Made by a program: the position numbers and the translations under genes | NCBI RefSeq assembly: GCF_021028975.2 | Contig: NC_059430.1 | Coordinates: forward strand, 101,370,001-101,434,000 | Source: Sphaerodactylus townsendi | Lineage: Eukaryota | DNA length: 64,000 nt | Direction of reading: 5' to 3' | Part shown: positions 2,180 to 37,134 of the stretch, in pieces | Layout: each line of letters starts with the position of its first letter | Position numbering within the stretch: position 1 is the first letter of the stretch | Notes under the pieces: generated by a model | Seen by the model: the letters and a program-made list of their open reading frames with translations, nothing else | The model's database searches: none | Told to the model about the DNA's origin: nothing

Positions 2180-5100
2180 CCCAGCAGTGGTAGAGCTAAC
2201 GAATGAATCAGCCAGGGGACTGTCAAACATAGTAGAATCTTCGCTAATCAGCTCCACATTTCTTCGTTTAAAGAGCTGAAATAGAAAACAGACTGCATTA
2301 AGAGGAGAACAACTAGGGTTGAGAAGGCTTACAGATATAAGTGATACACAGATTTCTGCAATTTCAAGCCTACAAGGAGATATGCAGGTCACTGAAGTCC
2401 ACTCCACACTGGGACAGATGTATCATTTTTCCTTCCCCCAGGAGATTGCAGTGGACCCTGCACATATTTTCCAGTTCATTTCCGAAGTCATAAAAACTAG
2501 AAATTGGCCTCTGTACACTAGATTCTCTGGGTCCAAACTCTGTCACACCCTATATTTCACAAGAGTGATACACAATGCATGCAGCCCTAGCAATAAGCAC
2601 CTTTGTAGCCATTGTATATCAGAAGCTAGCAATTTCCCCTACCTGTATGATGTAGGAACCCTGAGGGGCAGGCACACTGTATTCAGCCACTCCCCACAGC
2701 CCAATCACCCCAAAATACTGTTTATGGGATTGCAGCTCTAAATCACTAGGGACCAAGTTTTACTAGACCACATTTAGATTAAAAATGTACACAAGCTTTT
2801 AAGCACTCAACAGGAGACCAATGGTGCCTTCACAGTTTGCTACATCTATGTTCCAATTAAGGAATTTAGTCAATCTTCTTTTTAACTTATTAAAATCAGT
2901 TTAAGCATTATTAAAACCTCAGTCTGGTGCTTTCTTGAAATACTCAAGAAGATTGAGAACTTTCTTTGCTTGGACATATATAGTACAAGAACCAAAAATA
3001 CAAACAACGGCACCTGTTGCTACCCAATACAATAATTGAAACTATCTACTATGCAGCTTTAATTCATGTATTTAAAACTGTACCAAATACAGCTTTAATT
3101 CATATATTAAAGGGGGGAGCCATTATTCATCAGAACATAAGAGGCAGAGTACCCTGCTGGATCAAACCAGTGGTCCATCTAGTCCATCCCATTTCTTACA
3201 GTGGTCAACCAGTTGTCCTGGAGGATCAAACAGGACATAGATGCCAAGGCCTTCCCCAGTGTTGTTCAGTGGTACAGCATCTGCTTTGCATATGCAAGAT
3301 TCCAAGATCAAATCCCCAGCTTCTCTAGTTAAAATGATCAAGAAAGTGCCAATGTCCAAACTTTGACCTGAGAACTGAAGACCCAACTTTGATCCACTCT
3401 ACTATTTTGCAAAGCTCCCCAGATACAAGACAAATCACAAATCCCACCCTGCAAATAACCAGCCAATGATCCACCTAAGCTACACAAATGTTTCAGGGTA
3501 ATCAGAAGCAGTTAACTCTGACTGCCTTCTAGCCAAGAAAAACACATCTGTCACCCTACACAAGTACTACCTGCTGCTCCCGCTTCTGTTTGCGCAGCTG
3601 GATCCCTTCCTCCTCTCTTCTCCGTCGCATCTCCTCAGGATTCAGTGCCTTGTTTTTGTAGCTCTTCATTCTGTAGTTGTTCTCTTTTGCTGGGCTTGCC
3701 ATGGTTTCTGCAGGGGGAAGAGGAAAGAAAGATGCCATATCTGCTAAGTCAAATGGAAACAGGTCTCTAGTCTTCGGTGCTGGCATTGGATTACACATGT
3801 ATTCAAATGATAGCGGCTGGTGTAAATCATATAGCAGAGCTTGTACAAATCAATCGTCAACTGTTACACATAAGAACCAAGAAGTACCCTGATCAAAGCT
3901 GTGCAGCAGATCCCATTGCAAAGACAGGGTTTATTTTAATATATATGTTATTGATTTTATTTTTAAATAATAATGATATAATTATAAATATAATATATAA
4001 CTGAATAAATCTTCACAGAGAATAAACATGACAAAACTTTCATAGACACCCCCCATATACATACACACATACACACATAGTATATACTCGCATATAAGTC
4101 AAACTTTTCCAGCACATTTTTTGTGCTGAAAAAAGCCCCCCTCGACTTATATGAGAGTCAGGTGTCTTTTAAACAATATTTTAGAGTTTTTACTTTGTCA
4201 GCCGCCAGGGGGCACAGTTTTTAGGCTAGCGGCACCAAAATTTCAGGGATTTTTCAGGAGACTCTCCTGATGATACCACCCAAGTTTGGTAAAGTTTGGT
4301 TCAGGGGGTCCAAAGCTATGGACCCCCAAGTTTCCAATGGGAGCTAATAGTAGATGGGGCTACATTTTGAGGGTCCATAACTTTAGATTCCCTGAACCAA
4401 ACTTCACCAAACCTGGGTGGTATCATCAGGAGGGTCTCCTAAAGATACTCTGAAATGTTGGTGCTGCTAACATAAACATTCCTCCCCTGACCAAAAATCC
4501 AGTTTTGAAGAATTTTAACTCTAGTGTTTTACTTTGGTTGCTGGTCGAGCTAAGGGTTTTGTACGTTTAAAGTTATTGTTGAGACCATATTGTTTTAGTT
4601 GGCCCTCTTTTCCACTTACAGAGCTAGTTTACTGTTTTTCTTTGAAATAAATATTCAAAAACATTTAACCTACTGTTGCCTCAATTAATGTAATTTTATT
4701 GGTATCTATTTTTATTTTTGAAATTTACCAGTAGCTGCTGCCTTTCCCACCCTCGACTTATACGCGAGCTAATACGTTTTCCCAGTTTTTTGTGGTAAAA
4801 TTAGGTGCCTCGACTTATATGCGGGTCGACTTATACACAAGTATATACGGTGTGTGTGTGTGTATAAAAAAGCGAGTCTTGACTTCTATCATTCTCCTGG
4901 AGGCGACCTCGGGCATCCTGATTGGGTGATTTCCCAATCCATTATCAGGGAGGCAGGTACTACTTTTTTGCTGCAGCTTCCTGTGATGGGTTGGGCATCC
5001 GATTTGGCCCCAGTTCGTTTCCTGCCTAGCAGGGAGTGCAGGTCTTGGAGCCAAGCTCCAATTCTTCTGAGTTCCAACCTTTTTCTTCACTTCTTCAACC

Positions 5101-8100
5101 TCTCCATCCTGTGTACCCTGTCTGCGTGAGTCTTTTCCGTCGTTTTGTTCAGTCTTCGTGCGTCCCCCCCTCCCTCGACGAGCTCCCGCCAAAATCGGCC
5201 GCCTTAAGATGGCCGCCACCCGCTCTTTCTCCCCCCCTCCTCCCGAGAGCTTCGCCAGCACAGCGGCGAGAGGACGAGGGCAGCCACCCGGTCAGGGTCA
5301 CGAGTGCCCGAGGGATCGGACGCTTCTTCAGAGGGCTCCGCGTCCGCGACGGCAGCGGCTGCCCCACCCCCCAAGCCGACCGGCAAAAAAGCCAAGCCCA
5401 AAGGAAAAAAGGCGCGCAAGCAAGGCGCCAAGCGGCAAAAGCACCATGATGACATGGTTGCTCAGCCCGCCGATGGGAGCACCAGCGCCCCTCTCAGGGC
5501 CGCGGAGGGTGTCTCCTCTCGCCCCCCCCAACGCGAAGAAGTCGCAGACGAGGAAGGGGGGAGGCGCTCCAACGCGGACAGGGCAGACCAACCCTTCTCG
5601 GAGGAATCAGGAGAGGCTTCAGAGGCAGACGCTCCTGCAACGCCCAGGCAAGGTCGGGCAAGGGGGAGGGGGAGGAGCCATCCGGCAACTGGCAAGGCCC
5701 TGTCTCCTGCCAACGCCAACCCCTGGGCTAGTACCTCCTCCTCACATTTGATGAAGATGTTTACCAAGGCCTTCAGCAAGGCATTGGATAAAAGGGACAG
5801 GGAAAAACGCCACACCAAGGGAAAACACAGTTCCCAGCACAGTGAGAAAAGGAGGAGACCTGTCTCCAGCTCTTCCTCCAGTTCTGGCAGTCCCCGCCCT
5901 TCCTCCTCTAGATATAGGGACTCCCTTGCCATTCCAGGAGAGGAGGAATCCAGTGAGTCAGAGTCTGGTAATTCCTCAGACCATTTCTCAGAGGGAGGCG
6001 ATCCCCCCATAGAGACCAATGAGCAATGTAAACGTTTTTTCAAACAAGAGAATTTAGCCCTCATGATGGCCAAAACTATAGCCACCCTCGAATTACATGA
6101 TGCCGCAGACGCTGAGGACCCCTCTTCGGCATCCACCTCCAAAAAATCAGTCAAGGGGGTCCCGAAAGGGAGTAAGGACATCTTTCCCCACTCAGAGGAG
6201 ACCCCTCAGGCTTTTCCTCTCCCGGAGTATTTCGAGAGAAGGATGAAGAGGGAATGGCTAAATCTGGAAGCTAGTAGATCCGCCCCAAACTTCCTTAAGA
6301 AGTTGTACGTGCTCCCAGAACACATCCATGCCATCATCCAGACGCCACTAGTCGACGCACCCGTGGTGGCCCTCCAGTCCGCAGGGCTCGTCACTAAGGA
6401 CGGGGAGGGCACAATCAGAGATCCTTCTGACAGGCGAAAGTTGACGCCTTCCTAAACAGCATCCACGACAGGCTTGCCCTCACCATTAGAGCACTAGCAC
6501 CATCCTCCACCATGGCAAGAGCAGCCATAGTTTGGGCCCGCAGGATTCTTGCCATCATTCCCCCAGAGTTCCAGGGGATTAGAGAGGGTGTGGAGAGAAT
6601 GCTCCTGGCTGTGTCCTTCTGGGCAGATTCCACCTTCGACGCCCTTACGCTAGTTTCCCGCATCTTAGGCTTGGGAGTAGTGGCTAGGAGGCACGCCTGG
6701 CTCCGCCAATGGCAAGCCGACTTCCATTCCAAACAGGTGGTAGCCTCTTACGACTACCACGGCTCCCAGCTCTTCGGTAAAGAATTAGATGCTGTACTTG
6801 TTGAGTCCAAAGGCCACAAGAAAACTATGCCCAGGTATGTCAGATCCGACCAGGGCCCATCCTCAGCTAAGACTCACACAACCTTTAGGTCACAACGCAC
6901 ACTAGCGAGACCCTCCAATGATGGCAGACGGTGGTCTAACCAAAACTCCTTCCGTAGGCGCTCCTACGGCTACAACAATAACAATGCCTCAAATAACTCT
7001 TCCTTTCGTTCCACTAACTTCAGACAGCCAGGACGAGGCGGCAAGTCCTTTCAACCTGGCCGGGCAGCCAGATCCTGACCAGCAGGACATTCCGGTCGGC
7101 GGCCGCCTCCAATCTTTCCACCTTCATTGGACGGGCGGGCATGTCGACCGTTGGACCAGGGAGGTAATCACATCAGGTTACCTCATCGAGTTCTTCCGCA
7201 CCCCAAAACCCCACTTCCATCAATCCCCGGTCCACAAAAACCCCATAAAAAGAGAAAGAACTCTAGACGCCATTCACCACCTACTCAAGATCAAGGCGAT
7301 CGAGCCAGTTCCGTCCTCTCAACGTTTCTGCGGAGTTTACTCCCACTTTTTCACAGTTCCAAAACGCAACGGAAAATGGAGGGCCATCTTGAACCTGAAG
7401 TCTGTAAACAAACACATCCGTCTTCACCGGTTCAAGATGGAGACCCTCAGATCTATCACAGAGAACCTTCGCCCGGGAGACTACCTCTCCTCTCTGGACT
7501 TGACAGAGGCCTATCTTCACGTGCCGATCAACCCCCTTCACAGGGCGTTTCTCAGATTTGCAGTGGGCAGCCAGCACTACCAATACAAGGCTCTCCCCTT
7601 CGGGCTAGCCACCGCGCCCAGGGTTTTCACAAAAGTACTCCTGGCCCCCATCACAGCCCTCCGAGAACAGGGGATCCACGTCCACCCCTATCTCGACGAT
7701 ATCCTGGTGAGGTCCCCATCCAGGCAACAGAACTTGCAGGACCTCTCCACCGTCATATCGACTCTGACGCGGCACGGCTTCCTCATCAACTTCCAGAAAA
7801 GCTCCCTGAGTCCCAACACTCGCATGCGCCACCTGGGAGCAGTCATCGACACAACCCCTAGCAACGCTTCTGTTCGGTCCCTCACGACAAAGCAGTGAAA
7901 ATTCAGAGACTTGTCTCCCTATTTTTAGCAGCCAGAAGAGCCTCCATTCTACAGCTTGCCAAACTGATGGGACTGTTCATCTCTGTCATAGACATGCTGC
8001 AGTGGGCGAGATTTCACGCACGGACCCTACAGAGGACTCTCGCCCATTTCAACAGCTTAATTATGCAAAAACAGGACCTGACGATTCCCCTCACACCTCA

Positions 8101-11100
8101 ACTCAAGAACAGTCTAACGTGGTGGGCCCACCACAGAAATCTATGCACAGGCAAGGTTTACCTACCAGAAAATCGAATACAGGTCTTCACAGACGCCAGC
8201 CTCCGAGGCTGGGGAGCGTCCTGCGAGGGCCATCTGGCACAAGGCACCTGGACCCTGGAACAAGCCCAACTGCCAATCAACTTGCTGGAGATGATCGCCA
8301 TCCGCCTAGCTCTACAACATTTACGCCCGCATCTGCAGAGGCATCACATCTTGATCAGAACAGACAACATCGCAGCCAAGGCCCATGTCAACCATCAAGG
8401 GGGCTCCCGATCCACACGTCTCCATCAGGAGGCATCCCGGATCCTCTCCTGGGCGGAATCTCACCTCCTATCCCTCACAGCAGAACACATCAGTGGAAAT
8501 CTAAACGTGGAAGCAGACTGGCTAAGCAGGCAGACGGTGCTGGAGGCGGAATGGAAATTACACCCCAACATCTTCCATCTGATAAGTCAAAACTTCGGCA
8601 CTCCAGTCATCGACCTGTTCGCATCGGCAGAGAACCACCAACTGCCTCACTTCATCACCAGATACTTCCACCCTCGAGCCAGGGACACCGATGCCCTGAC
8701 CTCGCACTGGCCACCCAAACTCCTCTATGCCTTCCCTCCAATCCCAGTCATCCCCAAACTCCTGAGGAAGACCTGCAAGGAGAAGGCCAGGGTCATTCTA
8801 GTGGCTCCATGGTGGCCCAGGCGACCATGGTTTTCCTCCATTCTGCAACTCTCCATCGCTCCACCCCTGCGGCTTCCCACCCCGACAGACATGCTGACGC
8901 AGGGCCCAGTTCATCATCCCGATCCTCAATGGTTTTGCTTAACCGCTTGGAGCTTGAACGGGAATCCTTAATTAACAAGGGGTACTCCAAGAAGGTGGCC
9001 GACACCATCATCGCCTCTCGCAAACCCTCTACCATCAGAATCTACAACTCCTCCTGGAGAACATTCGTTCAGTGGGCCAACAAGCACCGTGCTAATCCTC
9101 TCCGTCCTACGGTACCTCAAGTGCTGCAGTTTTTACAGGAGGGTTTCGACAGGGGCCTGAGAAGCTCAACCTTAAGAAGACAAGTGGCAGCCCTGTCCAC
9201 GGTCTGGCCCCATCTGCAGGGAGTGCCCGCTTCCAGACATCTAGACGTGATAAAATTTCTGAAGGGAGTTAGACAACAACAAACTCCAGTAGTCCATAGA
9301 TTCCCTTCGTGGCGTCTGAGTACGGTCCTCAATGCCCTAGCTAAGCCACCATTCGAACCAATTCAATCCATAGGCTTAAAATGGCTCCGCATGAAACTCC
9401 TCCTCCTAGTGGCCGTCACGTCCAGCAGCAGAGTGTCAGAGCTATGCTTCTATCCATTAACTCTCAGTTATGTACTTTCCACAGAGATAGAGTGGTACTA
9501 AGGCTAGACCCATCCTTCGTTCCTAAGGTAGGATCCCTATTCCACATGAAACAGGAGGTAGTCCTACCCACATTCTTTCCCTTTCCTTCTCACCCGAAAG
9601 AAATACTCTGGCACAATCTGGATGTCCGCAGAGCACTCAAGGCCTTTATCCTTAGGACCGAACCCATCAGAAAGACTGAGACCCTGTTTGTCAATGTTTC
9701 GGCACCTAACCTAGGTTGTGCCATGTCTAAAGCGTCCATCAGTTCTGCCATAACATCCTGCATAGCAGAGTCTTACAGAGCCTCAAAACTTCCTGTGCCA
9801 CTAGGTATCACAGCGACTTTCGACTAGAAGTCGCTGGCCCACTAATGCGGCTCTACGTCGCCAGGTCCCCATCGAGGACATTTGCAAAGCGGCCACTTGG
9901 TCCTCCCCGACCTCGTTCACGAAGCACTATAGATTACATACCTTAGCGGCTAACGAGGTGGCCTTCGGGCACAGAGTGCTAGAGCACATATTCGGGGACT
10001 AAGAGGCCCACCCCATAAGGGACACTGCTCGGGGAGGTCCCAATCAGGATGTCCGAGGTCGCCTCCAGGAGAACGGTCCATTGGTAGACTTACCCTGAAG
10101 AGGCCTTCTCCTGGACGGCGACGAGGGCATCCTGGCCCCCCCTGGAGCCTTTTCAGTTACACATTACAGTTTAAGTTAAGTTCAAAAAGCAAGGAGTAAT
10201 AGGAACTCAGACCAAGTTTTAAGATAGTTTTTTGTGCTTCTACAGTTTGCTGTGTTGTTCTTCCTGTTGTGTTGTTTGTATACCGACTCTCTAATTTACT
10301 AGTACTGCTACGTTAGTCAAGTTTCTGGGGCCAAATCGGATGCCCAACCCATCACAGGAAGCTGCAGCAAAAAAGTAGTACCTGCCTCCCTGATAATGGA
10401 TTGGGAAATCACCCAATCAGGATGCCCTCGTCGCCGTCCAGGAGAAGGCCTCTTCAGGGTAAGTCTACCAATGGACCGTTTTCTATGTTACATAAAGCCA
10501 CTATTCAAGTAATATCTCTGTAAGGATTAGTCTTCTTTTAAAGATCAGAATAAATGAAACATCTGCTACACGTTAATTATATTAACTACAAATCAAACTG
10601 TTGCCCTTCTTACTTTTCAAAAACATCTATAGATATTTTTAGACATTAATACCATATTTTAGTTGCCTTTCTTCATAACATTTAGACATATCGTACAATT
10701 TGCATCCCTCATGAAACTCCTGTTTCGGTCATCTATCTGTTTATGAGACTAGTAAGCTTTGCCATTATAGCACATTCTCTCATCTTTTCTCTCTACATTT
10801 CTCAGTCAGGACAGGTGTCTGCTTTCCATCTGAATTCCAATATCACTCTAGCTGCAGTTAATGACGATAAGAATAATTCTTGTAGTTTTCCAGGAAGATT
10901 CTTTGGTAGGATCACCGATAAGACAAGTCTCTGCATCCATTTGAAACTCAATTTCCAGTATTTTGGATTTCTGCACGTACTTCCTTCCATTTTCTTTTAC
11001 TTTTTTACAAACTCACCGCAAATGGTCAAGTGTTCTATTTTCTTTCTTACATTTCCAACAGGTTTCTTTCACATTTTTGCTCATCCTCGCTATATTTTTT

Positions 11101-14100
11101 GGAGCGGTGTACCATGTATAAAATATCTTGTACCAGTTTTCCCTCAAAGTATGATAGGTTGTAAAATTAATATCCTTCATACATAATGACTCCCATTATC
11201 CAAACCAATCCAGCTGCTTCATGACATAATTTAATATTAGGTACTGCCAGTCCTCCTCTTTTTGTCTCATAACATTTTAAATTTTATCCTATGTTACTTG
11301 CCATTCCAGATGATTTTTTTAATCTGGGACTGCCATTCCTTCAGTTTTATCTTTTATAGAGACAGGAAGTATTGATAAAAAACTCATCTTAACAGCTGCA
11401 GTTCTTCCCAACAATGAAAATTTTATTTAGACCATCTTCACAAATCTTGTATTTTCTTCTATGTTGTTACAAAATTATCTTTAAATAATGTATCATTTTG
11501 CCCCTTTAAATTAATTCCAAGTTATTTAACTTTATTTGAATAATATTACAACCAGTAATTTTGTCAATATCCTTTTCTTCTTGTTTTGTTACAATTCAAA
11601 AAAAGGTTTTCTTTTTATTAATTTTATATCCTGAATGAAAACCAAACTCTTGTATTTGGTCCATCAAATACTTAATTGATTGTTGTATATCATCTACATA
11701 ACTTTTTATCATATATTCTTCTCCATTAACACTCAAACCTTTCATTCTTTGATCTCTTCTAATCTTTGTTGCCTTTGAAAGCTGATGAGACTTCTAAAAA
11801 CAGCCTCATTCTTCGACCAAGTGTTTAGGGTATTTTGATAACAGCAATTCATCAGATTTTATTCTGGTTTGATATGTCTGCTTGGTATGAACCCTGAATG
11901 CATGTTGCTGAAGGGTCTTTTTCCTATTGCTGCACTGGTATTATAGTGTTTCAGCATACCTTGCCACATTATTTTAAAACTGATCTATTGTAAGGTGTCT
12001 TGATTAAGGGTATACACGTCTAAAAAAAAAAATGAAAGTTGAAAAGCTTTGAAACAAGCAAACTTCTGCAGGGGGTCTTGTAGTGAAACCAGTAATCCAG
12101 CCCAGCCCTGGAAAACCAGTTCCAGGAAATCTTTACACAGTGCAAGCAGGGTCAACTCTGCTTTACCTGCTGCTTTTCAGGACACTTTCCCTCCATGTCT
12201 CTTCCTGCTGCCATCTTCACCAGTGATACTGAAAGGAAGGATGTACAAATGATGGCCTCCCGTTCCTATAGCAACAAAGCATGTCACAAATGTAGGCTTG
12301 TGACTTCACTGCTATGTTAGGACACAGAAGGAAACAGTTGGAAGTTTCAGACATGCTCTGGCAACCACGAACTGGAGAACTGCCAGCATCACTTGTGACA
12401 ACTGCAAAGCAGTGCTAGTCAATACCACCCACAACTGCAATGTCTGGCAAGGTCCTACCCTGCAAGGAGTCACATAGTCCAAATACTTTCCTCTCTACCT
12501 TCCTAGCTGGACCAACTCAGAATCCCTCATTTATGACTTTTCACTCTTCCAGTTCCACCGTGCAGCCTCTGCACACACACACACAAACTCCCAACAAGGC
12601 TTTTCTGTTTCTAGATTCTTCCCATGTTCTTAAAACACCTCTATGTCCCTCTCTGGCTTAAGCTCTCCCTTCAGTGCCCAGCTTCCCAGCAGACACCCCT
12701 CCCAGCCCCAGCTCAAGGCCCCAGCTCAAAGCACATTTAGTCATCCTGTCCTCTGCAGTTTGGCAATAGGGAGACAACAGATTGTGAATTCTTTTAGGGC
12801 TCCAGGGACCAATACCCAGTCTCTGTCCTTGAAGATAGGAAAGATTATAAGCCTACCTAATTCAGTCTTGAGGAAGGTCAATAGGCTCAGGTGTTCTTCA
12901 GCGGGGACCTAGGACTGCTGCACTCCCCAAGTCAGTTAATAAAATTGGCCTTGGGAATTCAGCACTTCTAGATTCAAAGCTTAAGCCACGGCCTCCTGGT
13001 CCTTGGCTCTCTTCCAACACACTGCATTGCCTCCCTCTGCTTCCTATCATGCTATTAATTGCTGCTGAGTAATATACAGACTCATATATTTAAAACTGGG
13101 ACTCCCATTGTTGAGTCAGAGGGAGACGCAGACAGACAAGGAGATGCTAAGGGAAAAGACTGGACAAACATGGCTGTGTTTTGTTCACTGCTGTACCATA
13201 CAAAAGGGAGGTCCAATCAGAAAGAGGCAGCTGGTAAGGAAAAGTGAGCATGGGGTAGCCAGCAAGGCTTAGAAAGTCACTTTATTTTGTCAGGAATTAG
13301 AAAAGACAGTAGAATAGCCTGTGTCATTATTAGGCACAGAGTTTTTAAAAAGTAGGGCTGTACCAGACATCCCTTATTCAAGACAAAAAAAAGGTTTTCA
13401 GGGGGTAGGGAACATCAAGTATTCCCACCACACCCCAAATTTTAGGGTTGAGTCCCACAGAAGATTTCCACGCACACAACAGTTCTTGTAGGAAGTACTA
13501 AAACTACTCCTCATTATCTGCTTGTGCCAAGTGAAAGTGATCATACCCTGCCACTTTTTTCATGCGCAACACTGCAGCACAAGACATTTCTGCTGGTAGT
13601 TTCAAAACCAGACTAAGTGAAATCACATGAACCATGTACATTTCACTGCTCCCATATAGACATGTATTTACTTTAAAATCACAAAGTGATTGGTGTTGCT
13701 GGAGCTGTTGCGCAAGGGGAATGAATGGTATGAAGTGACTTTTATTTTCCATGTACATACATCATTGGATCCAATCCAGAATATCAACAGATCTCATCCC
13801 CTGCAACAGCACCTTCATTTGTCACTTGGTCTCCAATCGAGCATTACAGCAGGATTACATGGTAGTCAGCCAACTCAGCTACAGATTTGAATCTTTTGAG
13901 ACACCCCACATTGCTGCTTTCTTTTTGCCATTGGGCAAAATAATACAATGTGTGACAGATCAATACTTCAACTTTCGCCACCTAAAGCGAGTCCCATAAG
14001 CTCCATGTGCACCCCAGTGGTCCAAACTCTTTCCTCTGGGCTGGCAACCGAGAGCTCAGCTCTTATCTCCCAGAGGGCTGGGTTTGGCGATGGCGATGGG

Positions 14101-14881
14101 GTCTCTCGAACCACACCCTAAGACAGAAAAGCAATACTGTTTTTCTGTGGAAAATTTTTCCACATCTGATGAGACTAGGGCAATGTGCTCTCAAGTCATG
14201 ACAACCCAGTCCACTGTGTATTCATGGCAACAGATGAGCAGAACTGGTTGACCACTGGCTTCCTCTGTATAGTAAGCCTGGACTACCTTGCTGGTCTCCC
14301 ATCCATGTACTACCCTGCTTAGTTTTCCAGTTCTGACAAGCTTCAGCCACACTGGGCTATTCAACTGTGAGACAGGCTAAATGTGACTATATGTGAAATA
14401 TGAAGAACTGGCAAAACCCATTGTAGTCGCCCATGGAGGAGCTTAGAACAATAAGGCTGGCTCCTCGATCTGGACCAAACTTTTTCCAGGCTTGTCCATT
14501 GCGTATTTGCCATCTTCTGCTAACATTTGGCAACAAGCCGAAGCAAAACAAAAATGGATTACTTCTTGAGCTGGGGAAAGCTGAAGAGTTTCCACATGCT
14601 TTTGGTTGCTCTGAACTAACTGATTTCAAATAGTTCTGAATCAGATTGTGCTTAACCTAAAATGAAACTCATAAGCAGTACAGAGCTGTTAATGAAGCAG
14701 AAGGTGCCATAATGACCTCAAAAGAAGAAAATCAAACCCTGCCAATGTAAGAGTGACTGTTACAGGCCTTTACTACATGAAAAAGTGTGTTAAGTTGTAA
14801 ATTTTATAATTTAATTTTTTTCATATTATTTTATTTTTAGTATTTTATTATTTTTCCTTTATTTATTTATTTATTTAATTT

Positions 14882-14916
<35 letters not shown>

Positions 14917-17900
14917 TTATATTAAACTTCTATACCGCCCTTCCCCAAAGGGCTCAGGGCGGTGTCCATTAATTATATAAAATAGTTAAAATCCATTACA
15001 CCCCAATCCCAGTTAAGAACCATATATAAATTATAAAAATTCAGATGGCGATTAAAATTGTTTCCCCTTTAAATGTAAACAAACAACACACGTATATGTG
15101 ATTTTCTGTACATTTTTACAGGTATTCCAATAAAATAATCTGTACATAAAGCTTTCAATGTGTCTGACTATAACACTTAAACTATAGTGTGTGTTTAAGT
15201 TCACCTTAATATTTCAGTTCAAATACTGTGACTTGGAAAAACCTCTGATATTTATATCAGTCATAAAAAAGGTATTTTTTGTTCTATTACATATCTTTTG
15301 TGTGGCTACTGAGGGAGAATGCATGTTTGGGAAATTTAAAAAGGAGTCAAACAAGTATGCTAAATCAGATCGTGTTATTTAGGGCATCAGAAATTTTTCC
15401 AATTCTGATTTTCCATGAAAATCCACATGGGTAGGGATCCAAACACACTTCAAGGGTATACAGGAGCTTTCATACGAGAGCTTTTGGCATGATGTCAGAG
15501 TAACATAAATGGTTTTGAGTGTTACTAATTCACAGGAACACAATGTGCGCTTCCTGTTCCTGAACATTAATGTCTAAGTGAAACCACCACACTGGACTTT
15601 TATGTGCTCAGAAAATATCAAGACTGTATTTTGGTTGTAAAATTGTACATATGAACCATAATTGCAGGGAATTTGAACATGCTGTTCCTGTGTGCCATGG
15701 GAACTTCCCAGACTGTTTCTCTGAATGTATATTCATGCTTTGAAACAAACAACCTATCCAAAGTCACTGAATATTTCATAACACGTCTGCCATGCATGCT
15801 TTTTCTCCTGCTCTCTCCCACTTTAAACTTCCCCCTCAGCTCGTTACACGGATCCATACAAATTTGGAAACTAGGCCCAAGAACATGCTTTTCAACCTTT
15901 CCACTAACACCATCACTTCTGCCTAGACAGCTACATTCCAAGGATTGCCTGGCTGTGAAACTCTTAGCACTCCAAAAAAGCAGCGCACAGAAGATAAGGA
16001 ACCTGACACAGCTATCCTCAAGATGGTTCAGCACAGGCAACTGAAAACAAAAATGAATACCATCATTTTTTAGTTCTCAGGGGTATTTACAAACTCAGAT
16101 GCTTTTGTCATTGGTGGACACCACTCCCCGCAGATGAAATGCTACAATTCCCCCCTCCCATTTCCAAGATAAGCTCATGAGTTAAATCAAACTAGCTTAC
16201 TACAGAGTACATGTCATCATCAGCCCACAATACCAGATAAAGCACGAGTCATGAGCCATTTGGCAGTACACGTCACCTACAGGCAGCAGTCACGTAACGC
16301 TCCAACTATTCAACTCAAACCAACCAAGAATCAAGGATTCAGCAGGTGAATCTGTGCCAAGCATGTGGCAGTCACCACAGAGTGACTAAGATTGTTTCCC
16401 TTGCTCTTTTCCCACCAACTTTTGCAAAACTGTGAACTTCCAAAAATTTTCTATGCCAGCTGAGACCATCTAGCTGAGTATTCCATCTAGTTAAGAGGCA
16501 TCTAGCTGAGATATTTAGTAAAAAAACACCAAGATTGTGAGAGCAACGAAATTTCACAGCAAGGCTTCAATGCAAATATTAAATTAAAGAACACGTGCTT
16601 ATCTTGGTCTGAAGATTTTAAACCACTACTGTCCCATGAGATAGTTACATAAAGGAAGAGTCAATTTGATCCTGTATTTTTCACATTTCTATGTGAAAAA
16701 TGCTTCAGAGGAAACATTTTTATCAACATTTAAGTGTTTAATGTTGGATGACAGAATAAAAATGCATCATCCTCTGTGTTCAACAACTTTTCAAAATTCC
16801 ATATAAAGTAATGATGAAACTGGTCAGTGTGTAAGGGGGTTAACATGGAGACAGGATGATCTCACTATGACCAAATGTGATCACTTTTCAGGAGGATTTT
16901 GCTAAAAATATGAAGTCGGGGGATGATTTCTCTATTTTTTCCTCTAAGGATTTTTTAAAATTTCCACTCCCAAAACATGCAATTCTTCCATAATATTTAT
17001 TTAAAAGATTTATATGCCACATTTCTGCCTAATCAAGGTCTCCAATATGCTATGTGCACAATATATTACTTAAAAATTCAGTTTTCAAAGTTTGAAGTTT
17101 CTCCTGATATTCAAACATATGGCTAGCCTTATTATGACTGTACGATGCTTTTGGTACTAATAAATGCATTTTTCATTAAAAAATCTTTTTGCTGTTTTAG
17201 AATAAGAAAAAATGAATTATACATAAGCTAAGGAAATTGACACATACTATCTCCCGTTAGTATTCAGCAACCTTATAATGCTGCTTGTACAAACTTTGGC
17301 ATTTAGCTTAAATTTCATAAATATGCCAAATAGTGCAATTTTACAGGCTAAGTTATCAATGACACATTTTATACTATAACAGCAATAAAATAAAGAGTAG
17401 ACGTGATAAGACTTGATAGACTTGCCTATATTTCTATTTTCCCCATGCCTTCAACATTTATATTCCCAAAAATCTGTTTACAATGTTGAGGAATGCCAGA
17501 TGTTTACACTCAGAACTGCATCTAAGGTATCTTTGCCATTTACAGCTGGCCTAACTAACTGTTCTTTTCAGGATAATAATTTACTGTTATCAACCACACA
17601 AACCCCTTAAAGACACATGGGAGTGTGAGCATAGTAAAGGCCAATTTAAGGGCTAAGAAAAGAAAGTAACAGTCCAAAACAAACCCTGCTCTACCCATGT
17701 CGATTCTCAGCCTACGTTCCAGTCCCTCTTGACTACACTTCCCAAACAAGCCTAGGACACTGGAGAAAAGACCAGACCAAATAACCAAAGAGACAGCAGA
17801 AGCCATGATCACTAGAAGGGAATAAGCGGGTGGTAAAGGTAGGAAGAAAAGATGACCTAAAGCTACTCCAAACCCCTCTCAGAGGGTCTGCCAGTAAGTC

Positions 17901-20900
17901 ACGCTGCTGGTCAGAGATATCCATTTCAAGTATATGTGTGTTGTCAGCATAATTTGATGTATTAAGTGTGCCACTGACACGAATAGCACATATTAGGTGA
18001 GCCTGTGAACGCAAGTTACAATTCTACAGTAATTCAGAATGTGTTTCCACTTTTGGAGTGATCTTTCCTTTTGTAAAAAGAGAAAGTTTCCAGTCATTCA
18101 GGTTTAGAAACATGGGGGCAACTACTAATGAAGTGGTAAAGGGGGCAACACCTACTGAAGTGGTAAATGTTTTTACTAGTTCAGGGCCCTCACCATAATT
18201 ATAATTATGCCTCTAGAGTACCACAGAATGTGTTCCTCAATGCGTGCATGTGCAGGTCACAGAACCAAGAGATACCCCATCAGCCCACAATGGATCACTA
18301 GAGTACTGTACCTCTGCTAGCAAATCCTCTATTCAGGCAATTCATTTGATTGCCTGGTGTGGCCATCACCACCGCAGACAAGCTTACAATGCAACAACAT
18401 CGACGGAATGTGCCCTTTTGCTGACCAGCCAGACTGCAAACAAGAGAAGAATGGAAAAGCATTTGACCATCTAAGAAGTCAAGCTATTGCTATAAATGGC
18501 CTTTCCACATGTTAAGTCAAAGCGATTCCCCAACATTGCAACAGGTGTAAGATGCCAAACCCCTGACACTGTGTCCTCCGTACCTCCTAACAAAAGCAAC
18601 TCAGCACATGAAAGCCCAAGACAGATACAGGCAGGGCCTCAATCACACCTCGTGACCACAGCAAAGGGATACCCGGGATGTTACCTACGGCCACGACCAG
18701 AGAGAAAACAACATTACGAAGTCTTAAAAACTATCCACACAGCTAGAATTTTTCCAGCCTTTACATATCGTCCAGTGTGAGTGAGGTTTTGACAGACCCA
18801 ATGAATATTTTCACAACTGCACCACAGCACATGAAATGATAGCCAGGGGGCTGTCAGACTAGAGATTGCCCAGTGCAGTTTGATTGGCACTTATTTGTTC
18901 CAAAGGGGTTCCAGCAGTTTGGTTTCTGAGACATGTTAAGCAAATAGGGCTTACCCTCACAGAATGCAGGGTATAGAACCATTACTACCCCCAACTTGCA
19001 TGCTATTAAAATATCTATACACTGCCTTTCTTCTAAGCTCAGGGTTATGGTGTTGCTCACCAATCAGGACTTTCAGGTGGGCTGTATGGGACACAAAACT
19101 GACCTACAGGATTGTGGTCAGTTCTAAAGTTGCTGCAGAGGTAAGTCTGTTGTAGAATTTAAAAAACCTTCTGGTATCTTAAAGCACTAGCAGATGTATT
19201 GTGAATTACTATATTTAAAAAGCTTGCTAATCTTAAAGTGCCAGAAGACTGTAGTTTGATGGCAATTATAAATAACACTGGAGGACAATGTGAAGTGCTT
19301 TATTACTTGCAGCAGTCAAGATTCACACTACTCATAGGTAGCAAAGTGCTTTTTCAACACAAGGTCAAGAAGCCTACAGGCAAATTCAGTTTAGGTACTG
19401 TGTCACAGCTTCCAACCACAGGCAAATCATGCAGTGACCCTTGAAACTTCTTCTCTGTACATGTGCTAGCCAACTGTACCCTGACATACAAATAGAAAAC
19501 CCAAGGACAGCCTTGCCTTCTTAAAGAGCTATTGAATAGACCATGGTTTTAGCTAAAAGTACAAGACAAACTCTAGGCTTTAAATTATTTGGCAATTGCA
19601 CCATTCCAAGACAACACTCAGGTATTTTTCACAGAAATAAAGGGAGAGGACCCCAAGATCTCTTCCTTCCTTAAAACCAGGCACTGAAGCTCATAATATA
19701 TGGATGTGCTCGCTCTTTTGTCTGACCTGTGGCCTAGCCCGAGGGATGAAGGTTGTGTGGTAGAGGTTCTTTATTTTGCTCCGAGGCTGCTTCTGATAAA
19801 TGCGAGGTCTATTAACAACAAAATTGCTACTCTCCGGGATTACCTTGGAGAACAAGCTGTCGACCTCAACTCAAAATTGACCCATGAAAGGGTCAAGAAC
19901 TCAAAGAGATGCAATTTTAATTCTTACTGTGCTTCTGCTTCTGATGCACCCACCAGTTCATAGACTAAAGATCCACCCCCAATCCTAGTTGTCACAAAAG
20001 TTCAAACTCTCTGTCACAGTCTAGCAAGGAAACACTGCAACAAAACAGGATCTCTTCCTAGCATACCAATTGTATTACTAGATGACTAAAGAATTTTATA
20101 CTAGACATAACACCCTTCGAATGCAGTTAAAATCCAGACAACAAAAAAAGGGAAAGAATGGGAAAAAAAACTGTTGAAAAGCTGGGAAGATTTACTCCCA
20201 TCCTTCTCTTAATAAACAGGCAAAGGTAACCAACAGCCAATTCTTCCATTACAAAGACAGGACAGAATTTTGCAACCTCCTTCTCACACTCCAAAGTCGG
20301 CCTTGCTGTGCGCAAACAGGAGCTCAGCTGCTGTCTCAGAAGAGCTCACAAACACTTCAGACTGCAGATTCTTGAAGAAAAAAGTTGTACAGGACTTTCT
20401 AGTATCTACATAAGTTGTTAGAAGAAACAAGAATTGGAGAAACTACAGCAATTTAACTATATAATACCAGAAAACATGAAGCATCTGTCCCATCTGTCCT
20501 TTAGGAAAGAATGCAAAGCAAAAATATTTTGCAATGCCTTTGTGGGGTAAATAATTAGACTTTCACTGTCATATATTGACTTGTTTTAATTAGGATGGGA
20601 TTAGACTTTTATTATCATATTAGACTTTTTCAGCTTCTGGTTAATACTTAATAGCAATAATTAGACTTTTATTGTCATATACTGACTTGTTTTAATTAGA
20701 GTCGGGTTTTGGTAGCCATTAAGCCCCCCCCCCCCCCCCCCGCTTTGGGTGGAATGGGAAAGCAGAGTGCACGTGTTTCAATGTAAGTAAAACCTCTGTG
20801 TGTAATATGATAATTACTAAAAAAAAACCCACGGTATTACACATTCTATCGAATTAAAGCTACAGTCAAATGAATGAATCCTCCTTTCATACTCACCCAA

Positions 20901-22582
20901 GAACCATTTCTCACCCTAACACTGGCAGGACTGAAATTAGTATTTTCGAAAAATAGTACATTATCCTAGAGGGCCTGAGTACCCAAATGCTGTGGTTGTT
21001 ACTTCCCTACATCAAATTTTTACAGATTAGTAAATAGCAACTTGCTTGGCCACCTGTAACAAGTAAGAACTGGAAGACTAGGCAGAAAACTCTTGTTGAA
21101 AACTAGCAGCCCCAATGGGGTTCCCTTGGTGAACAAGAGATTAATAAAGTCTGGATGTGAACAAGTAGACTGGTAAAAAAAATTGTAGACTAATTTTTGT
21201 ATCTGTTTGTGGTGCCACTTTGCAAAACAGTAATGCAAGATAATTCAGACTACAAATAATATTATAGCCTTTGTTATACTTCCTAAACCAAGGGTACGAA
21301 GCAAGCAATAAGACAGCCCAATCTAAGCCACTTGTTTGAACTGGTACAAATGGGCCATCTAATTTCATTATCACTGCAAGAGCAAAAAGCTATAACAGAC
21401 AAATCCCCTTAGAAAAGGCTTTGAGGCCTTGGGGCAACAACAATTCAGAGGCAGAGCATACATGTCATATAGAAGGCCCCTGGTTTCAATACCAGTGTAT
21501 GATTATTGTATTTTTGAAGTATCCTGATCAGTGACTGTATAAATAAATAAGTAAGTAATAGCAGTGTATAGACACCAGGCAGTCAAGACTAGAGAGTGGC
21601 AGTGCGTCAAAAAAGACAGCACCACTTTAGATACAGTGATGGCCGACTAACACCAATGTTCACACTGCCTCATGAGAACATGCAATCACACAATACACAT
21701 TGCAAAGTTATCACTAGAATCCCTGTTATGCATATGTGTCTGGATTTACTCCCTGCTCTTCTCAACCATAAGAAGTCTCAAAGCAGCTTACAAACTCCTT
21801 TCCCTTCCTCTCCCCACAACAAACACCTTGTGAGGCAGGTGGAACTGACAGAGTTCTGAGAGAACTGTGACTGGCTCAAGGCCACCCAGCAGGTTTCATG
21901 TGGAGGAGTGAGGAAACAAACCTGGTTCTCCAGATCAGCTGCTTATGTAGAGGAGTGGAGAATCAAACCCAGTTCTACTCTTAACCACTTTTCCGCGGAG
22001 GGGAAGGCCGGGAACGAAAGCTGGAGTGACTCAAGGAATTGCCCAGCATCCCTAACGTCATATGAAAATACACAGACCGAGGCATCAATTTACAGCACCG
22101 TGACAGAGTCTAGCCAGCCAACCCGCCCTCCTCTGGACTGCTGGGAAAGAAGCAGAGCAAACAATGGACCCACACTTCAGGGCAAGGGGGGGGGGATTAA
22201 CTTTGCCCCCTTTCCCAAGGCAACGTACTGCCCCCCCAGAATGCAGGCCAGGCTCTCGGTCGGGATGGGGGCGCGACCGGAAAACCAAGAAATGTGTGTG
22301 TGGCGGGAGAAGCAACTCCATCCGCCCCCGGCCACCTTACGTCGCGCCTACCACAAAACTGGCGGTCCAGAGACCCAGAAGCCGAAAGAAGCATCGACAC
22401 CCCCACCCCCCCTCCTCCTCAAGAAGGGGAGGCCCAGCGCCACTCAGCAGGACAGCAGAGACTAACGAAAGGTTTCGCTAGTCACCTCACACGGGGAGAG
22501 GGCTGTCAGGCCGCCGCCTAAGCCGGAGAAGGGGAGCCTAAGGCGCCCCTCAGGAAAGGCAGGCTCCGTGTCTCTCACCCAT
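2180..22582 (-). CDS. KPNA6: Importin subunit alpha-7 (karyopherin alpha 6), 5' portion; coding exons 22582-22579, 3707-3571, 2275-2180; gene continues beyond the left edge
   Basis: Spliced translation M|[46 protein letters not shown]|[32 protein letters not shown] matches the importin-alpha IBB domain of KPNA6. Exon 1 is ATGG|GTGAGA inside a CpG island; all junctions are GT-AG and in phase. Confidence 0.93.
4078..4850. mobile_element. Non-autonomous Tc1/mariner (Tc2/pogo-like) DNA element with an internal palindrome
   Basis: Inverted ends GTATATACTCGCATATAAGTC ... GACTTATACACAAGTATATACGG, repeated CTCGACTTATA subterminal motifs, internal inverted repeat about 4200-4330 vs 4370-4490, flanked by CA/TG microsatellite. 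Confidence 0.65.
4892..5013 (+). repeat. DIRS left inverted terminal repeat
   Basis: 4911-5013 is the exact reverse complement of 10325-10427; 4892-4926 is complementary to ICR 10039-10073 with one mismatch. Confidence 0.95.
5209..7078 (+). CDS. DIRS gag-like ORF1 (frameshift near 6438; start uncertain, nearest ATG at 5209 is out of frame with 5304-6455)
   Basis: ORF 5304-6455 (..[16 protein letters not shown]) continues in another frame as [28 protein letters not shown] (6512-7078), typical of vertebrate DIRS gag. Confidence 0.8.
6918..8971 (+). CDS. DIRS pol: reverse transcriptase, RNase H and DNA N6-adenine methyltransferase-like domain (frameshifted at about 7860-7880)
   Basis: RT motifs [23 protein letters not shown] and YLDD (7689-7700); RNase H motifs FTDAS, INLLE, TDN and NVEADWLSR; C-terminal IDLFAS...LYAFPP. 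Confidence 0.92.
8950..10002 (+). CDS. DIRS tyrosine recombinase (frameshifts near 9445 and 9815-9840)
   Basis: [15 protein letters not shown] (catalytic Arg at 9430), LDVRRAL, an indel-scrambled H-S-T-R region at about 9813-9830, then [14 protein letters not shown] (Tyr at 9928); stop TAA 10000-10002. Confidence 0.9.
10039..10134 (+). repeat. DIRS internal complementary region (ICR)
   Basis: 10039-10073 is the reverse complement of the left end (1 mismatch). 10072-10134 is the exact reverse complement of the right end 10418-10480. The two halves overlap at AA. Confidence 0.95.
10325..10480 (+). repeat. DIRS right inverted terminal repeat with right extension
   Basis: Inverted copy of the left ITR followed by an extension ending ...GGACCGTT. 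Confidence 0.95.
10640..12000 (-). mobile_element. Degenerate L1/Tx1-clade LINE ORF2 fragment
   Basis: Broken minus-strand translations [19 protein letters not shown] and a C-terminal YWK...LTAARVI..RWK region; AT-rich. Confidence 0.7.
14830..15060 (-). repeat. (ATTT)n microsatellite forming the tail of an L2-type 3' end
   Basis: ATTT array followed by CTTCTATACCGCCCTTCCCCAAAGGGCTCAGGGCGG. Confidence 0.55.
19700..19867 (+). mobile_element. L2/CR1-clade LINE endonuclease N-terminal fragment
   Basis: Translation [27 protein letters not shown] resembles APE endonuclease motif I. Confidence 0.7.
20100..20790 (+). mobile_element. Degenerate L2-like LINE 3' fragment
   Basis: ORF2-end-like [16 protein letters not shown] followed by a T-rich 3' UTR containing an approximately 44-bp direct duplication. 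Confidence 0.45.
21745..21990 (-). mobile_element. tRNA/CORE SINE (Squam3-like)
   Basis: Shares CACAACAAACACC..GTGAGG..GAACTGTGACT..CAAGG..CACCCAGC with the other copies in the window. Confidence 0.75.
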
Positions 22583-36000: not shown

Positions 36001-37134
36001 TCCTGAATGGCCCAGGCTCACCCAATCTTGTCAGATCTCAGAGGCTAAGCTCTGTTTAGTATTTGGACAGGTTATCACGAAGGAAGTCCAGGGCTGTTAT
36101 GCAAGGGCAGGCAAATGACAATATTTGTCTCTTGCCTTTAAAACCACACATGGTCGTCCTAAGTTGGCTACCAAACTTGATAGCACTCTCCACCACCAGA
36201 ATCAGGAACACAACAGCAGAAGACATGGTGTTCCTCTTGGAGTAGACAGCTTTGTAGAAAAGTGAGTCATGACTAAGCAAATAACTGATCTACTAATGAC
36301 CTGAACTTTCACAAAACATCACAATCAGAGCATCCAAAAATCATGATTGAGGCGTGACTATGTTCTCCTTTAGTCAACCAAACATCCACTGATGCACCAG
36401 GGCCAATTGTTCAGCTATGACTTTTCAATGATAAATTATTCCTTAGACCAGCTCTGCCATTTTCCTTTCCAGAGTTTATCGAGAGATTCCTTCCTAGGGA
36501 GCTCCAGATCGTCAAGCGCTTGGATCACAAGAACATCATCCGCGTATATGAGATGCTGGAGTCCACCGACGGGAAAATCTACCTGGTGATGGAGCTGGCA
36601 GAAGATGGCGATGTCTTTGACTGTGTGCTGCAAGGCGGGCCTTTGCCCGAGAGCAGAGCAAAAGCCCTCTTTTGTCAGCTGGTAGAGGCAATCCGCTACT
36701 GCCACAGCTGTGGTGTGGCGCACCGTGACCTGAAATGTGAAAATGCCCTCTTGCAGGGCTTCAACCTGAAACTGACTGACTTTGGATTTGCAAAACTGCT
36801 CCCCAAGAACCGCAAGGAGCTGAGCCAGACGTTCTGTGGCAGCACTGCCTATGCCGCCCCCGAGGTGCTGCAGGGTGTGCCCCACGATAGCAAGAAGGGT
36901 GATATTTGGAGCATGGGGGTGGTTCTCTATGTCATGCTCTGTGCCAACCTGCCCTTTGATGACACAGATATCCCCAAGATGCTTTGCCACCAGCAGAAGG
37001 GGGTTTCCATCCCAGGCCACTTGGGGATTTCAGAGGAATGCCAGGACCTTCTCAAAAGCCTGTTGGAACCAGACATGATCTTGAGGCCTTCCATTGAAGA
37101 AGTAACCTGGCATCCATGGTTAGCAAACCCCTGA
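33080..37134 (+). CDS. TSSK3: Testis-specific serine/threonine kinase 3, 268 aa; exons 33080-33224 and 36473-37134
   Basis: MEEFLLSHGYQVGKTIGEGTYSKVK..VAVKIID..GPE|EFIERFLPREL..HRDLKCEN..DFG..APE..WHPWLANP; GT-AG phase-1 intron; AATAAA at 37164-37169. Confidence 0.97.
33565..33858 (+). mobile_element. tRNA/CORE SINE (Squam3-like)
   Basis: GAGAGCCAGCGTGGTGTAGTGGTTAAGAGC head, B-box, CTT-rich tail. Confidence 0.82.
34710..35008 (-). mobile_element. tRNA/CORE SINE (Squam3-like)
   Basis: Reverse copy, (GAA)n GAGTTGGATTTAT...CTTAACCACTACGCCAC. Confidence 0.82.
35285..35555 (+). mobile_element. Sauria SINE (Squam1-like)
   Basis: GCTCAAGGTTGACTCAGCCTTCCATCCTTCTGAGGTC core, ATGGCAAACC, ACCTTT tail. 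Confidence 0.75.
35711..35849. mobile_element. Palindromic hAT MITE
   Basis: Same family as 25044; 8-bp TSD CTCTACAT. Confidence 0.85.
36000..36198 (+). mobile_element. 5S rRNA-derived SINE
   Basis: GGCCCAGGCTCACCCAATCTTGTCAGATCTCAGAGGCTAAGC head. Confidence 0.6.

What the first reader, a model, noticed from the sequence alone, without database searches (positions are those of the whole stretch)
4892..10480. Structurally complete, apparently very young DIRS1 retrotransposon inside KPNA6 intron 1
Seen: the 103-bp ITRs are identical, the 63-bp ICR-to-right-end match is perfect, the ICR-to-left-end match has 1 mismatch in 35, and CpGs are undepleted. The coding frames are broken by a few tight clusters of small indels (about 6438, 7860-7880, 9445, 9815-9840) rather than scattered nonsense substitutions. 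Known: DIRS elements integrate through circular DNA using a tyrosine recombinase and are not known as intact elements in mammals or birds. Inference: this is a recent, possibly polymorphic or active insertion, and the clustered indels may be assembly consensus errors in a multi-copy repeat.
Basis: partly seen in the sequence, partly recalled or inferred. Interest (0 to 1): 0.7.

Follow-up and report, generated by a model that had tools for sequence, protein, structure and literature searches.

The report
Young lizard DIRS1 with leaky stop
This is a complete jumping gene of a kind already known from lizards, likely young, sitting backwards in intron 1 of KPNA6; its broken spots are likely assembly errors, and one stop signal kept across its relatives suggests that ribosomes likely read through it and slip at it to make the element's two enzymes.

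Summary
This is a 5,589-bp DIRS1-like retrotransposon (gag, RT-RNase H-methyltransferase, tyrosine recombinase, exact 103-bp ITRs, ICR), antisense in KPNA6 intron 1 of a squamate reptile.

It is likely young: about 0.25% private divergence, a 99% sister copy, and one contig suggesting an empty site in a related organism. Polymorphism within the species is untested. The indel clusters are likely long-read assembly errors: other copies carry up to 360 small indels beside near-perfect ITRs.

Less ordinary: gag ends in TGA-C in 59 of 59 junctions examined; family representatives show it 20 of 20 times against 1 of 36 at true ORF ends. Coding constraint switches from gag to the +1 (RT) frame at this stop. 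RT and recombinase share no start codon, and the recombinase frame continues in frame behind the stop. The likely reading is one leaky stop giving Gag, Gag-recombinase (readthrough) and Gag-RT (+1 shift). It is untested, and key older papers were unavailable.

The scan earlier noted the long-read noise, the terminal splice donor and the gag-TGA-recombinase layout on other DNA.

The parts
4892..10480 (+). Full-length DIRS1-like retrotransposon, 5,589 bp
4892..5013 (+). Left ITR; 4892-4926 pairs with the ICR, 4911-5013 is exact against the right ITR
5209..7078 (+). gag-like ORF1 (LAP2alpha-like Pfam hit); ATG at 5209 inferred; frame broken near 5267 and 6437
7073..7079 (+). End of gag, TCC-TGA-C: candidate readthrough and +1 shift site. 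The RT frame starts with Asp at 7077, the recombinase frame follows in the gag frame at 7079
7077..8971 (+). RT (YLDD) - RNase H - DAM-like methyltransferase frame; broken at 7858-7876, self-compensating pair at 8040/8057
7079..10002 (+). Tyrosine-recombinase frame (971 codons in unbroken copies, the first 628 overlapping RT); broken at 7858-7876, about 9447 and 9815-9836
9087..9414 (+). Patch of 13 differences from the sister copy, 12 synonymous, nearly identical to another copy (mosaic or polishing cross-talk)
10039..10134 (+). ICR: 10039-10073 complements the left end, 10072-10134 the right end; the two overlap on AA, the complement of the shared TT
10325..10446 (+). Right ITR (exact part 10325-10427)
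10447..10480 (+). Right extension (rE) with a splice-donor-like GGTAAGT; ends in TT shared with the target
3708..22578 (-). KPNA6 intron 1
3571..3707 (-). KPNA6 exon 2 (IBB domain)
2180..2275 (-). KPNA6 exon 3 (approximate limits)
   Evidence: weak hit, E 0.82, to importin alpha-7
22579..22582 (-). KPNA6 exon 1 coding end (ATG G) in a CpG island

Best explanation
This is a complete DIRS1-like tyrosine-recombinase retrotransposon, likely young, lying antisense in KPNA6 intron 1 of a squamate, whose clustered frame breaks are likely long-read assembly errors and whose family likely makes its recombinase and reverse transcriptase by readthrough and a +1 shift at the single gag stop. Shown: anatomy, termini, a TT(C/T) target without duplication, many related copies, purifying selection between copies, and the conserved TGA-C with a switch of coding constraint. 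Taken from the DIRS model (inferred here): a sub-genomic RNA is reverse transcribed, the ICR and ITR copies restore both ends, and the recombinase inserts the joined ends at a 2-3-nt match. Inferred: age about as old as or younger than allelic divergence in the species; errors at the clusters (about 0.8); readthrough to the recombinase (about 0.7); +1 shift into RT at the stop (about 0.55).
For: Domains: RVT_1, RT_RNaseH, Dam and LAP2alpha in the window; Phage_integrase and an HSTR...HY motif in the sister copy. The nearest named RT relatives are squamate proteins at 44-49%. All 28 right junctions recovered are followed by C or T. The 26-nt terminal motif has 119 exact matches in the genome, control 0. 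pN/pS against copies 5-14% away: 0.14-0.26 in gag, 0.08-0.40 in the recombinase, 0.13-0.31 in RT. Age: 14 of 21 window-derived substitutions lie outside the clusters (0.25%), and ITR plus ICR give 1 mismatch in 201 pairs; flank contigs differ at 8 of 1,182 sites in a second sample of organism A and 23 of about 950 in organism C. Empty site: a 149-nt contig of organism C starts matching at 10479 with 70 letters unlaid, the length predicted from the end of the high-copy repeat in the left flank. Errors: L004 has 7 indel events in its first 2 kb and 268 in the rest, 250 insertions to 25 deletions, a similar substitution rate throughout and ITRs 103/103; 7 of 9 close copies have 105-360 indel events. 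Flank contigs of sample S1 show 0 differences over 1,956 bp, while all contig depth shows the sister state at 5267, 6457-6458, 7858, 7861, 7876 and 9424-9429 in 4 of 4 runs. Recoding: TGA-C 4-6 codons before the RT motif in 59 of 59 distinct junctions; 20 of 20 family representatives against 1 of 36 true ORF ends; syn/nonsyn 61/17 in the gag frame and 7/59 in the RT frame before the stop, 74/36 in the RT frame after it; the overlap has 0 stops where 10.6-14.3 are expected (0 of 2,000 shuffles, 4 copies); no shared ATG.
Against: Only assembled contigs could be laid, and they drop rare variants: probably real private bases are also fully replaced in some runs (5354 in all four, 10052 in X2), and run X2 does not show the gap at 7868. 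The errors are therefore not proven. The empty site rests on one contig whose loose letters were not shown. The invariant GAC could be a conserved Asp, although 21% of RT-frame Asp codons are GAT (P=0.008). Only 9 of 20 families have a codon before the stop that is a listed antizyme site (TCC 7, CCG 1, CCC 1, PMC1874602 passages). A 3' stimulatory fold is weak (mean z -1.1 against up to -0.8 elsewhere). In distant metagenomic relatives only 9 of 25 have TGA-C, the stop lies 6-55 codons upstream, and the lack of TAA (0 of 25 against 5 of 42) is not significant (P=0.15). No ribosome, RNA or protein data.
Confidence: 0.72

Rival explanations
1. The indel clusters are real mutations and this copy is dead on arrival or was hit by clustered repair events after insertion.
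For: Contigs cannot show absence of a single-copy variant. The lone indel near 5267 and the sister copy's own lone gag indel look like ordinary mutations.
Against: About a dozen small indels against 14 point mutations, clustered at P=0.0002. The same assembly shows insertion-rich noise beside intact ITRs in many copies. Some private bases survive at single-copy depth (10052 in X1, 79.6; 7374 in X2, 33.6; 5366 in X1, 67.1) but no cluster state does among the rows shown (40 of 517 letter rows, 12 of 62 gap rows).
Confidence: 0.2
2. RT and recombinase are made from spliced or internally initiated RNAs, and TGAC is kept as a branch point or as an Asp codon rather than as a leaky stop.
For: CTGAC matches the branch-point consensus (recalled). 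The element carries a conserved donor-like motif at its right end. An earlier, unchecked scan note reports a gag-recombinase splice in an Ngaro element.
Against: The AG that would follow is present in 10 of 20 family representatives and flips at a synonymous Pro position (my reading of the print). Splicing past RT would not explain why 628 overlapping codons stay stop-free yet unconstrained (pN/pS 1.3-3.1 in that frame). I did not search formally for distant splice sites.
Confidence: 0.25
3. The insertion is old and fixed, and its terminal repeats look young because of gene conversion or assembly polishing.
For: ITR identity alone allows up to 3.5% divergence. Noisy copies also have perfect ITRs.
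Against: 99% identity to a copy on another contig along the whole length, high CpG content and a likely empty site in organism C.
Confidence: 0.07

Closest known systems
Anolis carolinensis AcDIRS2 and Xenopus XtDIRS2/3 (DIRS1-like; PMC3266345 Table 3 passage; PMC9210276 passages)
   Same: 5.6-6 kb, divergent plus conserved ITR parts, right extension, two overlapping ICRs, gag / RT-RH-MT / YR, long ORF overlap, T-rich junction. XtDIRS2 has a 102-bp conserved ITR and ICRs of 43 and 61.
   Different: A different family in another squamate. I did not have the Repbase sequences, so there was no direct comparison. The passages I saw do not discuss how RT and YR are translated.
Dictyostelium DIRS-1 (PMC7192593 abstract, Introduction, passages; PMC5633606 passages)
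   Same: ICR complementary to both ends; overlapping ORF2 and ORF3. The ICR is required for transposition and the proteins act in trans, so even a broken copy could be mobilised.
   Different: DIRS-1 clusters at centromeres and has longer ITRs; these copies are dispersed and this one is intronic.
Ornithine decarboxylase antizyme +1 frameshift (PMC1874602 passages)
   Same: ORF1 stop UGA with ORF2 entered in the +1 frame. UCC-UGA is the commonest site here (7 of 20) as there, and C after UGA is the weakest termination context.
   Different: Cellular and polyamine-regulated, with a 3' pseudoknot in mammals. Here the codon before the stop varies, no firm stimulator was found, and a third, in-frame readthrough product is inferred.
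Gag-pol stop-codon readthrough of gammaretroviruses and UGA-C readthrough of alphaviruses (recalled, no call)
   Same: A single leaky stop after an upstream ORF with a long in-frame continuation. Distant DIRS relatives show TGA-C (9 of 25) and TAG-G (5 of 25).
   Different: Here the readthrough product would be Gag plus a 628-residue unconstrained linker plus recombinase, while RT lies in another frame.

Membership tests
DIRS1-like superfamily | Inverted terminal repeats with a conserved and a divergent part | tested here: met
   103 bp exact plus 19 bp divergent
DIRS1-like superfamily | Two ICRs complementary to both ends, overlapping at the junction, and a right extension | tested here: met
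   34/35 and 63/63, overlap at 10072-10073, rE 10447-10480
DIRS1-like superfamily | Co-oriented gag, RT-RNase H-methyltransferase and tyrosine recombinase | tested here: met
   Pfam (Dam and Phage_integrase below the curated cut-offs); YLDD, AFPP and HSTR...HY motifs
DIRS1-like superfamily | No target-site duplication; 2-3 nt shared with the target | tested here: met
   TT at both ends; 28 of 28 right junctions followed by C or T; the base before the left end varies
DIRS1-like superfamily | No DDE integrase or protease | tested here: met
   No such Pfam hit in the 6 window frames and 3 sister frames scanned, plus strand only
DIRS1-like superfamily | RT groups with DIRS1 references in a tree | not tested
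   Only a similarity search was run; no labelled references were held
DIRS1-like superfamily | cDNA intermediate and recombinase-mediated integration | not testable with these tools
   Model from PMC3266345 and PMC7192593
Ngaro / PAT elements | Split direct repeats | tested here: not met
   The repeats are inverted; no long identical direct repeats
Antizyme-type +1 frameshift site | Second ORF in the +1 frame whose conserved part starts at the ORF1 stop, without its own AUG | tested here: met
Antizyme-type +1 frameshift site | Shift-prone codon before the stop | tested here: inconclusive
   9 of 20 families match sites named in the passages of PMC1874602; CAA 5, GCA 3, TCT 2 and AGC 1 do not
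Antizyme-type +1 frameshift site | 3' stimulatory RNA structure | tested here: inconclusive
   Mean z -1.11, 8 of 20 below -1.5; other windows reach -0.83 and 6 of 20
Stop-codon readthrough | Weak stop context with a selected open in-frame extension | tested here: met
   TGA-C 20/20 against 1/36; 0 stops against 10.6-14.3 expected
Stop-codon readthrough / +1 frameshift | Measured recoding or fusion peptides | not testable with these tools
   No RNA holder listed

The most novel reading that the evidence does not exclude
DIRS1-like retrotransposons decode one UGA-C three ways: termination gives Gag, in-frame readthrough gives Gag-linker-recombinase, and an antizyme-like +1 shift at the same stop gives Gag-RT. 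This would explain the long-known stop-free overlap of the recombinase frame with RT and the missing start codons, and would give a vertebrate example of two recoding events at one codon.
Probability: 0.4. Interest if true: 0.65.

Novelty: new member of a known kind. Interest (0 to 1): 0.38.

Why it matters
As an insertion it is ordinary: young full-length DIRS copies in lizard genes are documented. It does warn that frame breaks inside repeats of this assembly should not be read as decay. The part worth following is the conserved leaky stop. How DIRS elements make RT and recombinase was not addressed in any passage I could read, and the 7-nt site at 7073-7079 makes that testable with standard reporters. 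If both events occur at one codon, it sets the Gag:RT:recombinase ratio and adds a natural model for competition between termination, readthrough and +1 shifting.

Tried and rejected
1. Polymorphism in the host species: runs X1, X3 and X4 have no contig over 10490-10499, so no verdict. The loose end at 10502 in X1 matches the neighbouring repeat family, not an empty allele.
2. Expression: no RNA holder listed.
3. An element-encoded splice acceptor in the ITR: the AG is present in only 2 of 20 full-length copies, so it is rejected as a family feature.
4. An RT frame selected open upstream of the gag stop: 6 stops seen against 7.1 expected from composition, rejected.
5. A conserved -1 slippery heptamer before the stop: found in 3 of 8 copies at two positions, rejected.
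6. A conserved 3' stem-loop: inconclusive.
7. No relatives in viral contigs.
8. Literature on readthrough or frameshifting in DIRS: six searches listed 4, 0, 1, 0, 3 and 0 papers. I judged the listed ones off-topic from titles and abstract starts and did not open them. Term look-ups in PMC2685390, PMC6681497, PMC3783388, PMC5633606, PMC4157794 and PMC7192593 gave no such proposal. Goodwin and Poulter 2001 and Poulter and Butler 2015 are not held, so the idea may already be in print. No supplements were read.
9. Rows dropped before counts: one search used 55 distinct loci after removing 5 duplicates; 11 lacked an open RT or a recombinase motif, 7 had an interrupted overlap frame and 2 had a later stop, leaving 35. 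The '35 of 35 open' line is circular and is not used; the 59-of-59 count is anchored on the RT motif across loci L001-L090. In the metagenomic set, 48 of 80 loci had the motif and 25 of these the long in-frame continuation.
Full report
Observation. The element spans 4892-10480. The ITRs are exactly complementary over 103 bp (4911-5013 / 10325-10427) inside a 122-bp arm. The ICR matches the right end at 63 of 63 and the left end at 34 of 35 sites, and its halves overlap on AA, the complement of the TT found at both ends. CpG o/e is 0.59 against 0.20-0.22 in the flanks. Pfam finds LAP2alpha (gag region), RVT_1, RT_RNaseH and, below cut-off, Dam and an integrase N-terminal domain; the sister copy adds Phage_integrase, also below cut-off. 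The host gene is KPNA6 on the minus strand: an IBB exon at 3571-3707 is 100% identical to snake and gecko importin alpha-7 entries, 95-96% to the best bird hits and 91% to mammals, and exon 1 ends at 22579. The host is a squamate; the best named RT relatives are also squamate.

Family. A DNA search of the own genome scored 30 of 2,371 candidates and returned a 99% copy on another contig, ten other full-span matches at 76-91% and further families near 70%. The 26-nt terminal motif occurs 119 times, up to twice per element. Protein searches found dozens of open RT frames, falling into 24 clusters among 44 usable loci. Two of 20 full-length copies examined have all three frames open; the 99% sister has its own gag break. 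All 28 right junctions recovered are followed by C or T and no target duplication is seen, as in the 3-nt junction model (PMC3266345, passages). pN/pS between copies 5-14% apart is 0.08-0.40 in the three coding frames, so these lineages diverged while replicating.

Age. The window and sister copies differ by 48 substitutions and 15 indel events. Outgroup copies assign 21 substitutions to the window copy, 14 of them outside the indel clusters (0.25%, 95% range 0.14-0.42%); 16 could not be assigned. One mismatch in 201 ITR and ICR pairs gives the same figure per site, with a wide range. Flank contigs differ at 8 of 1,182 sites in a second sample of organism A and at 23 of about 950 in organism C. 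The insertion is therefore about as old as or younger than allelic divergence in the species, and polymorphism is possible (inference). In organism C a 149-nt contig (depth 19) starts matching at 10479 with 70 letters unlaid. Seventy is the distance from the last word shared with the high-copy repeat in the left flank to the junction, so this is likely the empty site, but the letters were not shown. Runs X1, X3 and X4 have no contig over the junction and give no verdict.

Indel clusters. There are six affected sites, not four, and 10 of 15 events lie within 25 bp of another (P=0.0002). In one search most of the 9 outgroup copies are closer to the sister state at the five clusters (6 to 9 of 9). 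The assembly has a clear noise signature in this family: L004 has 7 indel events in its first 2 kb and 268 in the rest, 250 insertions to 25 deletions, a similar substitution rate throughout and perfect ITRs; 7 of 9 close copies have 105-360 events. Contigs of sample S1 match the flanks without a difference over 1,956 bp, and in 4 of 4 runs all depth shows the sister state at 5267, 6457-6458, 7858, 7861, 7876 and 9424-9429; at 7868 it is 3 of 4. Some private bases of this copy survive at single-copy depth, and no cluster state does in the rows shown. Contigs drop rare variants, so error is likely (about 0.8) but not proven. An earlier unchecked note (e1-9956481) reached a similar view for other copies.

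What is known. DIRS1-like elements with this anatomy are described from Anolis (775 copies, 42 families) and Xenopus (PMC3266345; PMC9210276; passages). Among 28 anoles, 6,873 polymorphic Dirs insertions were counted, and a 5,672-bp one is listed at distance 0 from VAV3 (PMC7561263, passages). In Dictyostelium the ICR is required, the proteins act in trans, the cDNA is mostly linear and single-stranded, and inverse PCR found no junction (PMC7192593, abstract, Introduction and passages).

The gag stop. In unbroken copies gag ends in TGA and the recombinase frame follows directly in the same frame for 971 codons, the first 628 overlapping RT. The overlap has no stop where synonymous shuffles of RT give 10.6-14.3 (0 of 2,000 in each of 4 copies), while the third frame has 30-38. 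Its amino acids are unconstrained (pN/pS 1.3-3.1). Long overlap is a known trait (PMC3266345). Anchoring on the RT motif in loci L001-L090, the nearest stop in the gag frame is TGA-C, 4-6 codons upstream, in 59 of 59 distinct contexts. Family representatives, whose RT cores go down to 47% identity, give TGA-C 20 of 20 times against 1 of 36 at the true RT and recombinase ends (Fisher P about 3e-14; families are related, so this overstates independence). In 15 within-family pairs, changes in the 45 nt before the stop are synonymous in the gag frame (61/17) and not in the RT frame (7/59); in the 90 nt after it they are synonymous in the RT frame (74/36) and not in the recombinase frame (23/93). 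RT lies in the +1 frame and starts with the GAC of TGAC. Eleven of 20 families have no upstream in-frame ATG, the other nine have one at scattered distances, and the first Met of the recombinase frame ranges from codon 14 to 488. The commonest site, also in the window, is TCC-TGA-C, the antizyme +1 shift site in the weakest termination context (PMC1874602, passages).

Limits of that reading. In 25 of 48 distant metagenomic relatives the same layout holds (single stop, long in-frame continuation, RT in +1), but the stop is TGA or TAG in mixed contexts and lies 6-55 codons upstream; TAA is absent (0 of 25 against 5 of 42, P=0.15). Eleven of 20 families have a codon before the stop that is not among the antizyme sites I read about, and a 3' structure is not established. 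Another note saw the gag-TGA-recombinase layout in Naegleria (e1-636573). Six literature searches and six term look-ups found no proposal of recoding in DIRS (38, 41, 53, 66, 76, 77), but two main reviews are not held and no supplements were read.

Mechanism. Shown: structure, target rule, copy number, selection, conserved stop and frame switch. From the established model: reverse transcription, end repair by ICR and ITR, recombinase insertion at TT(C/T). Inferred: readthrough to a Gag-linker-recombinase (about 0.7), a +1 shift to Gag-RT at the same stop (about 0.55), both together about 0.4.

Verdict. The element is real, likely young and of a known kind; the breaks are likely artefacts. On its own it merits about 0.2. 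The conserved leaky stop is a testable lead on how DIRS elements are translated and raises the overall score to 0.38.

Noticed in passing
window 10361-10094 (minus strand): On the KPNA6 strand the right ITR gives an acceptor-like site and the ICR the only GGTAAGT of intron 1, bounding a possible 268-nt cryptic exon with an early stop. The acceptor AG is present in only this copy and its sister among 20. No RNA data.
   Followed up: partly
window 9087-9414: Mosaic patch: 13 differences from the sister copy, 12 synonymous (P=6e-7 at a neutral share of 0.25); in the 300-nt bin from 9092, 1 difference from L003 against 11 from the sister. Recombination between co-active lineages or polishing cross-talk.
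   Followed up: partly
window 8727-8745 and L002, L013, L015-L017: The methyltransferase motif reads AFPP, whereas a 2026 preprint (10.64898/2026.05.21.726589, passages) gives Asn-Pro-Pro for nearly all DAMs; activity may differ.
   Followed up: no
window 9424-9448 and 9815-9838: Two of the clusters fall on or beside recombinase catalytic motifs; this may be chance or polishing conflict from diverged families.
   Followed up: no
window 4975-4985 and 5206-5220: A conserved CTTCCTG (ETS-like) in the ITR across the copies printed, and a YY1-like motif around the gag ATG; motif names recalled.
   Followed up: no
window about 4078-4851: Very high-copy DNA-transposon-like repeat with a nested 121-bp inverted repeat (4209-4487), ending 40 bp left of the DIRS junction.
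   Followed up: no
G000 C3:154055388-154066298 and C963: DIRS termini or RT frames repeated at 5-10 kb spacing, suggesting tandem or locally duplicated copies.
   Followed up: no
window 36421-37134, 45174-45920, 56007-56834: A TSSK-type kinase exon, a BSDC1-like exon and a CR1-type LINE RT fragment; names recalled from the translations.
   Followed up: no
L105, L107, L117, L119, L122, L124, L127 and others of L091-L170: 16 of 48 metagenomic DIRS relatives have no stop within 200 codons upstream (or up to the contig edge) in the gag frame, which suggests a different gag-pol arrangement.
   Followed up: no
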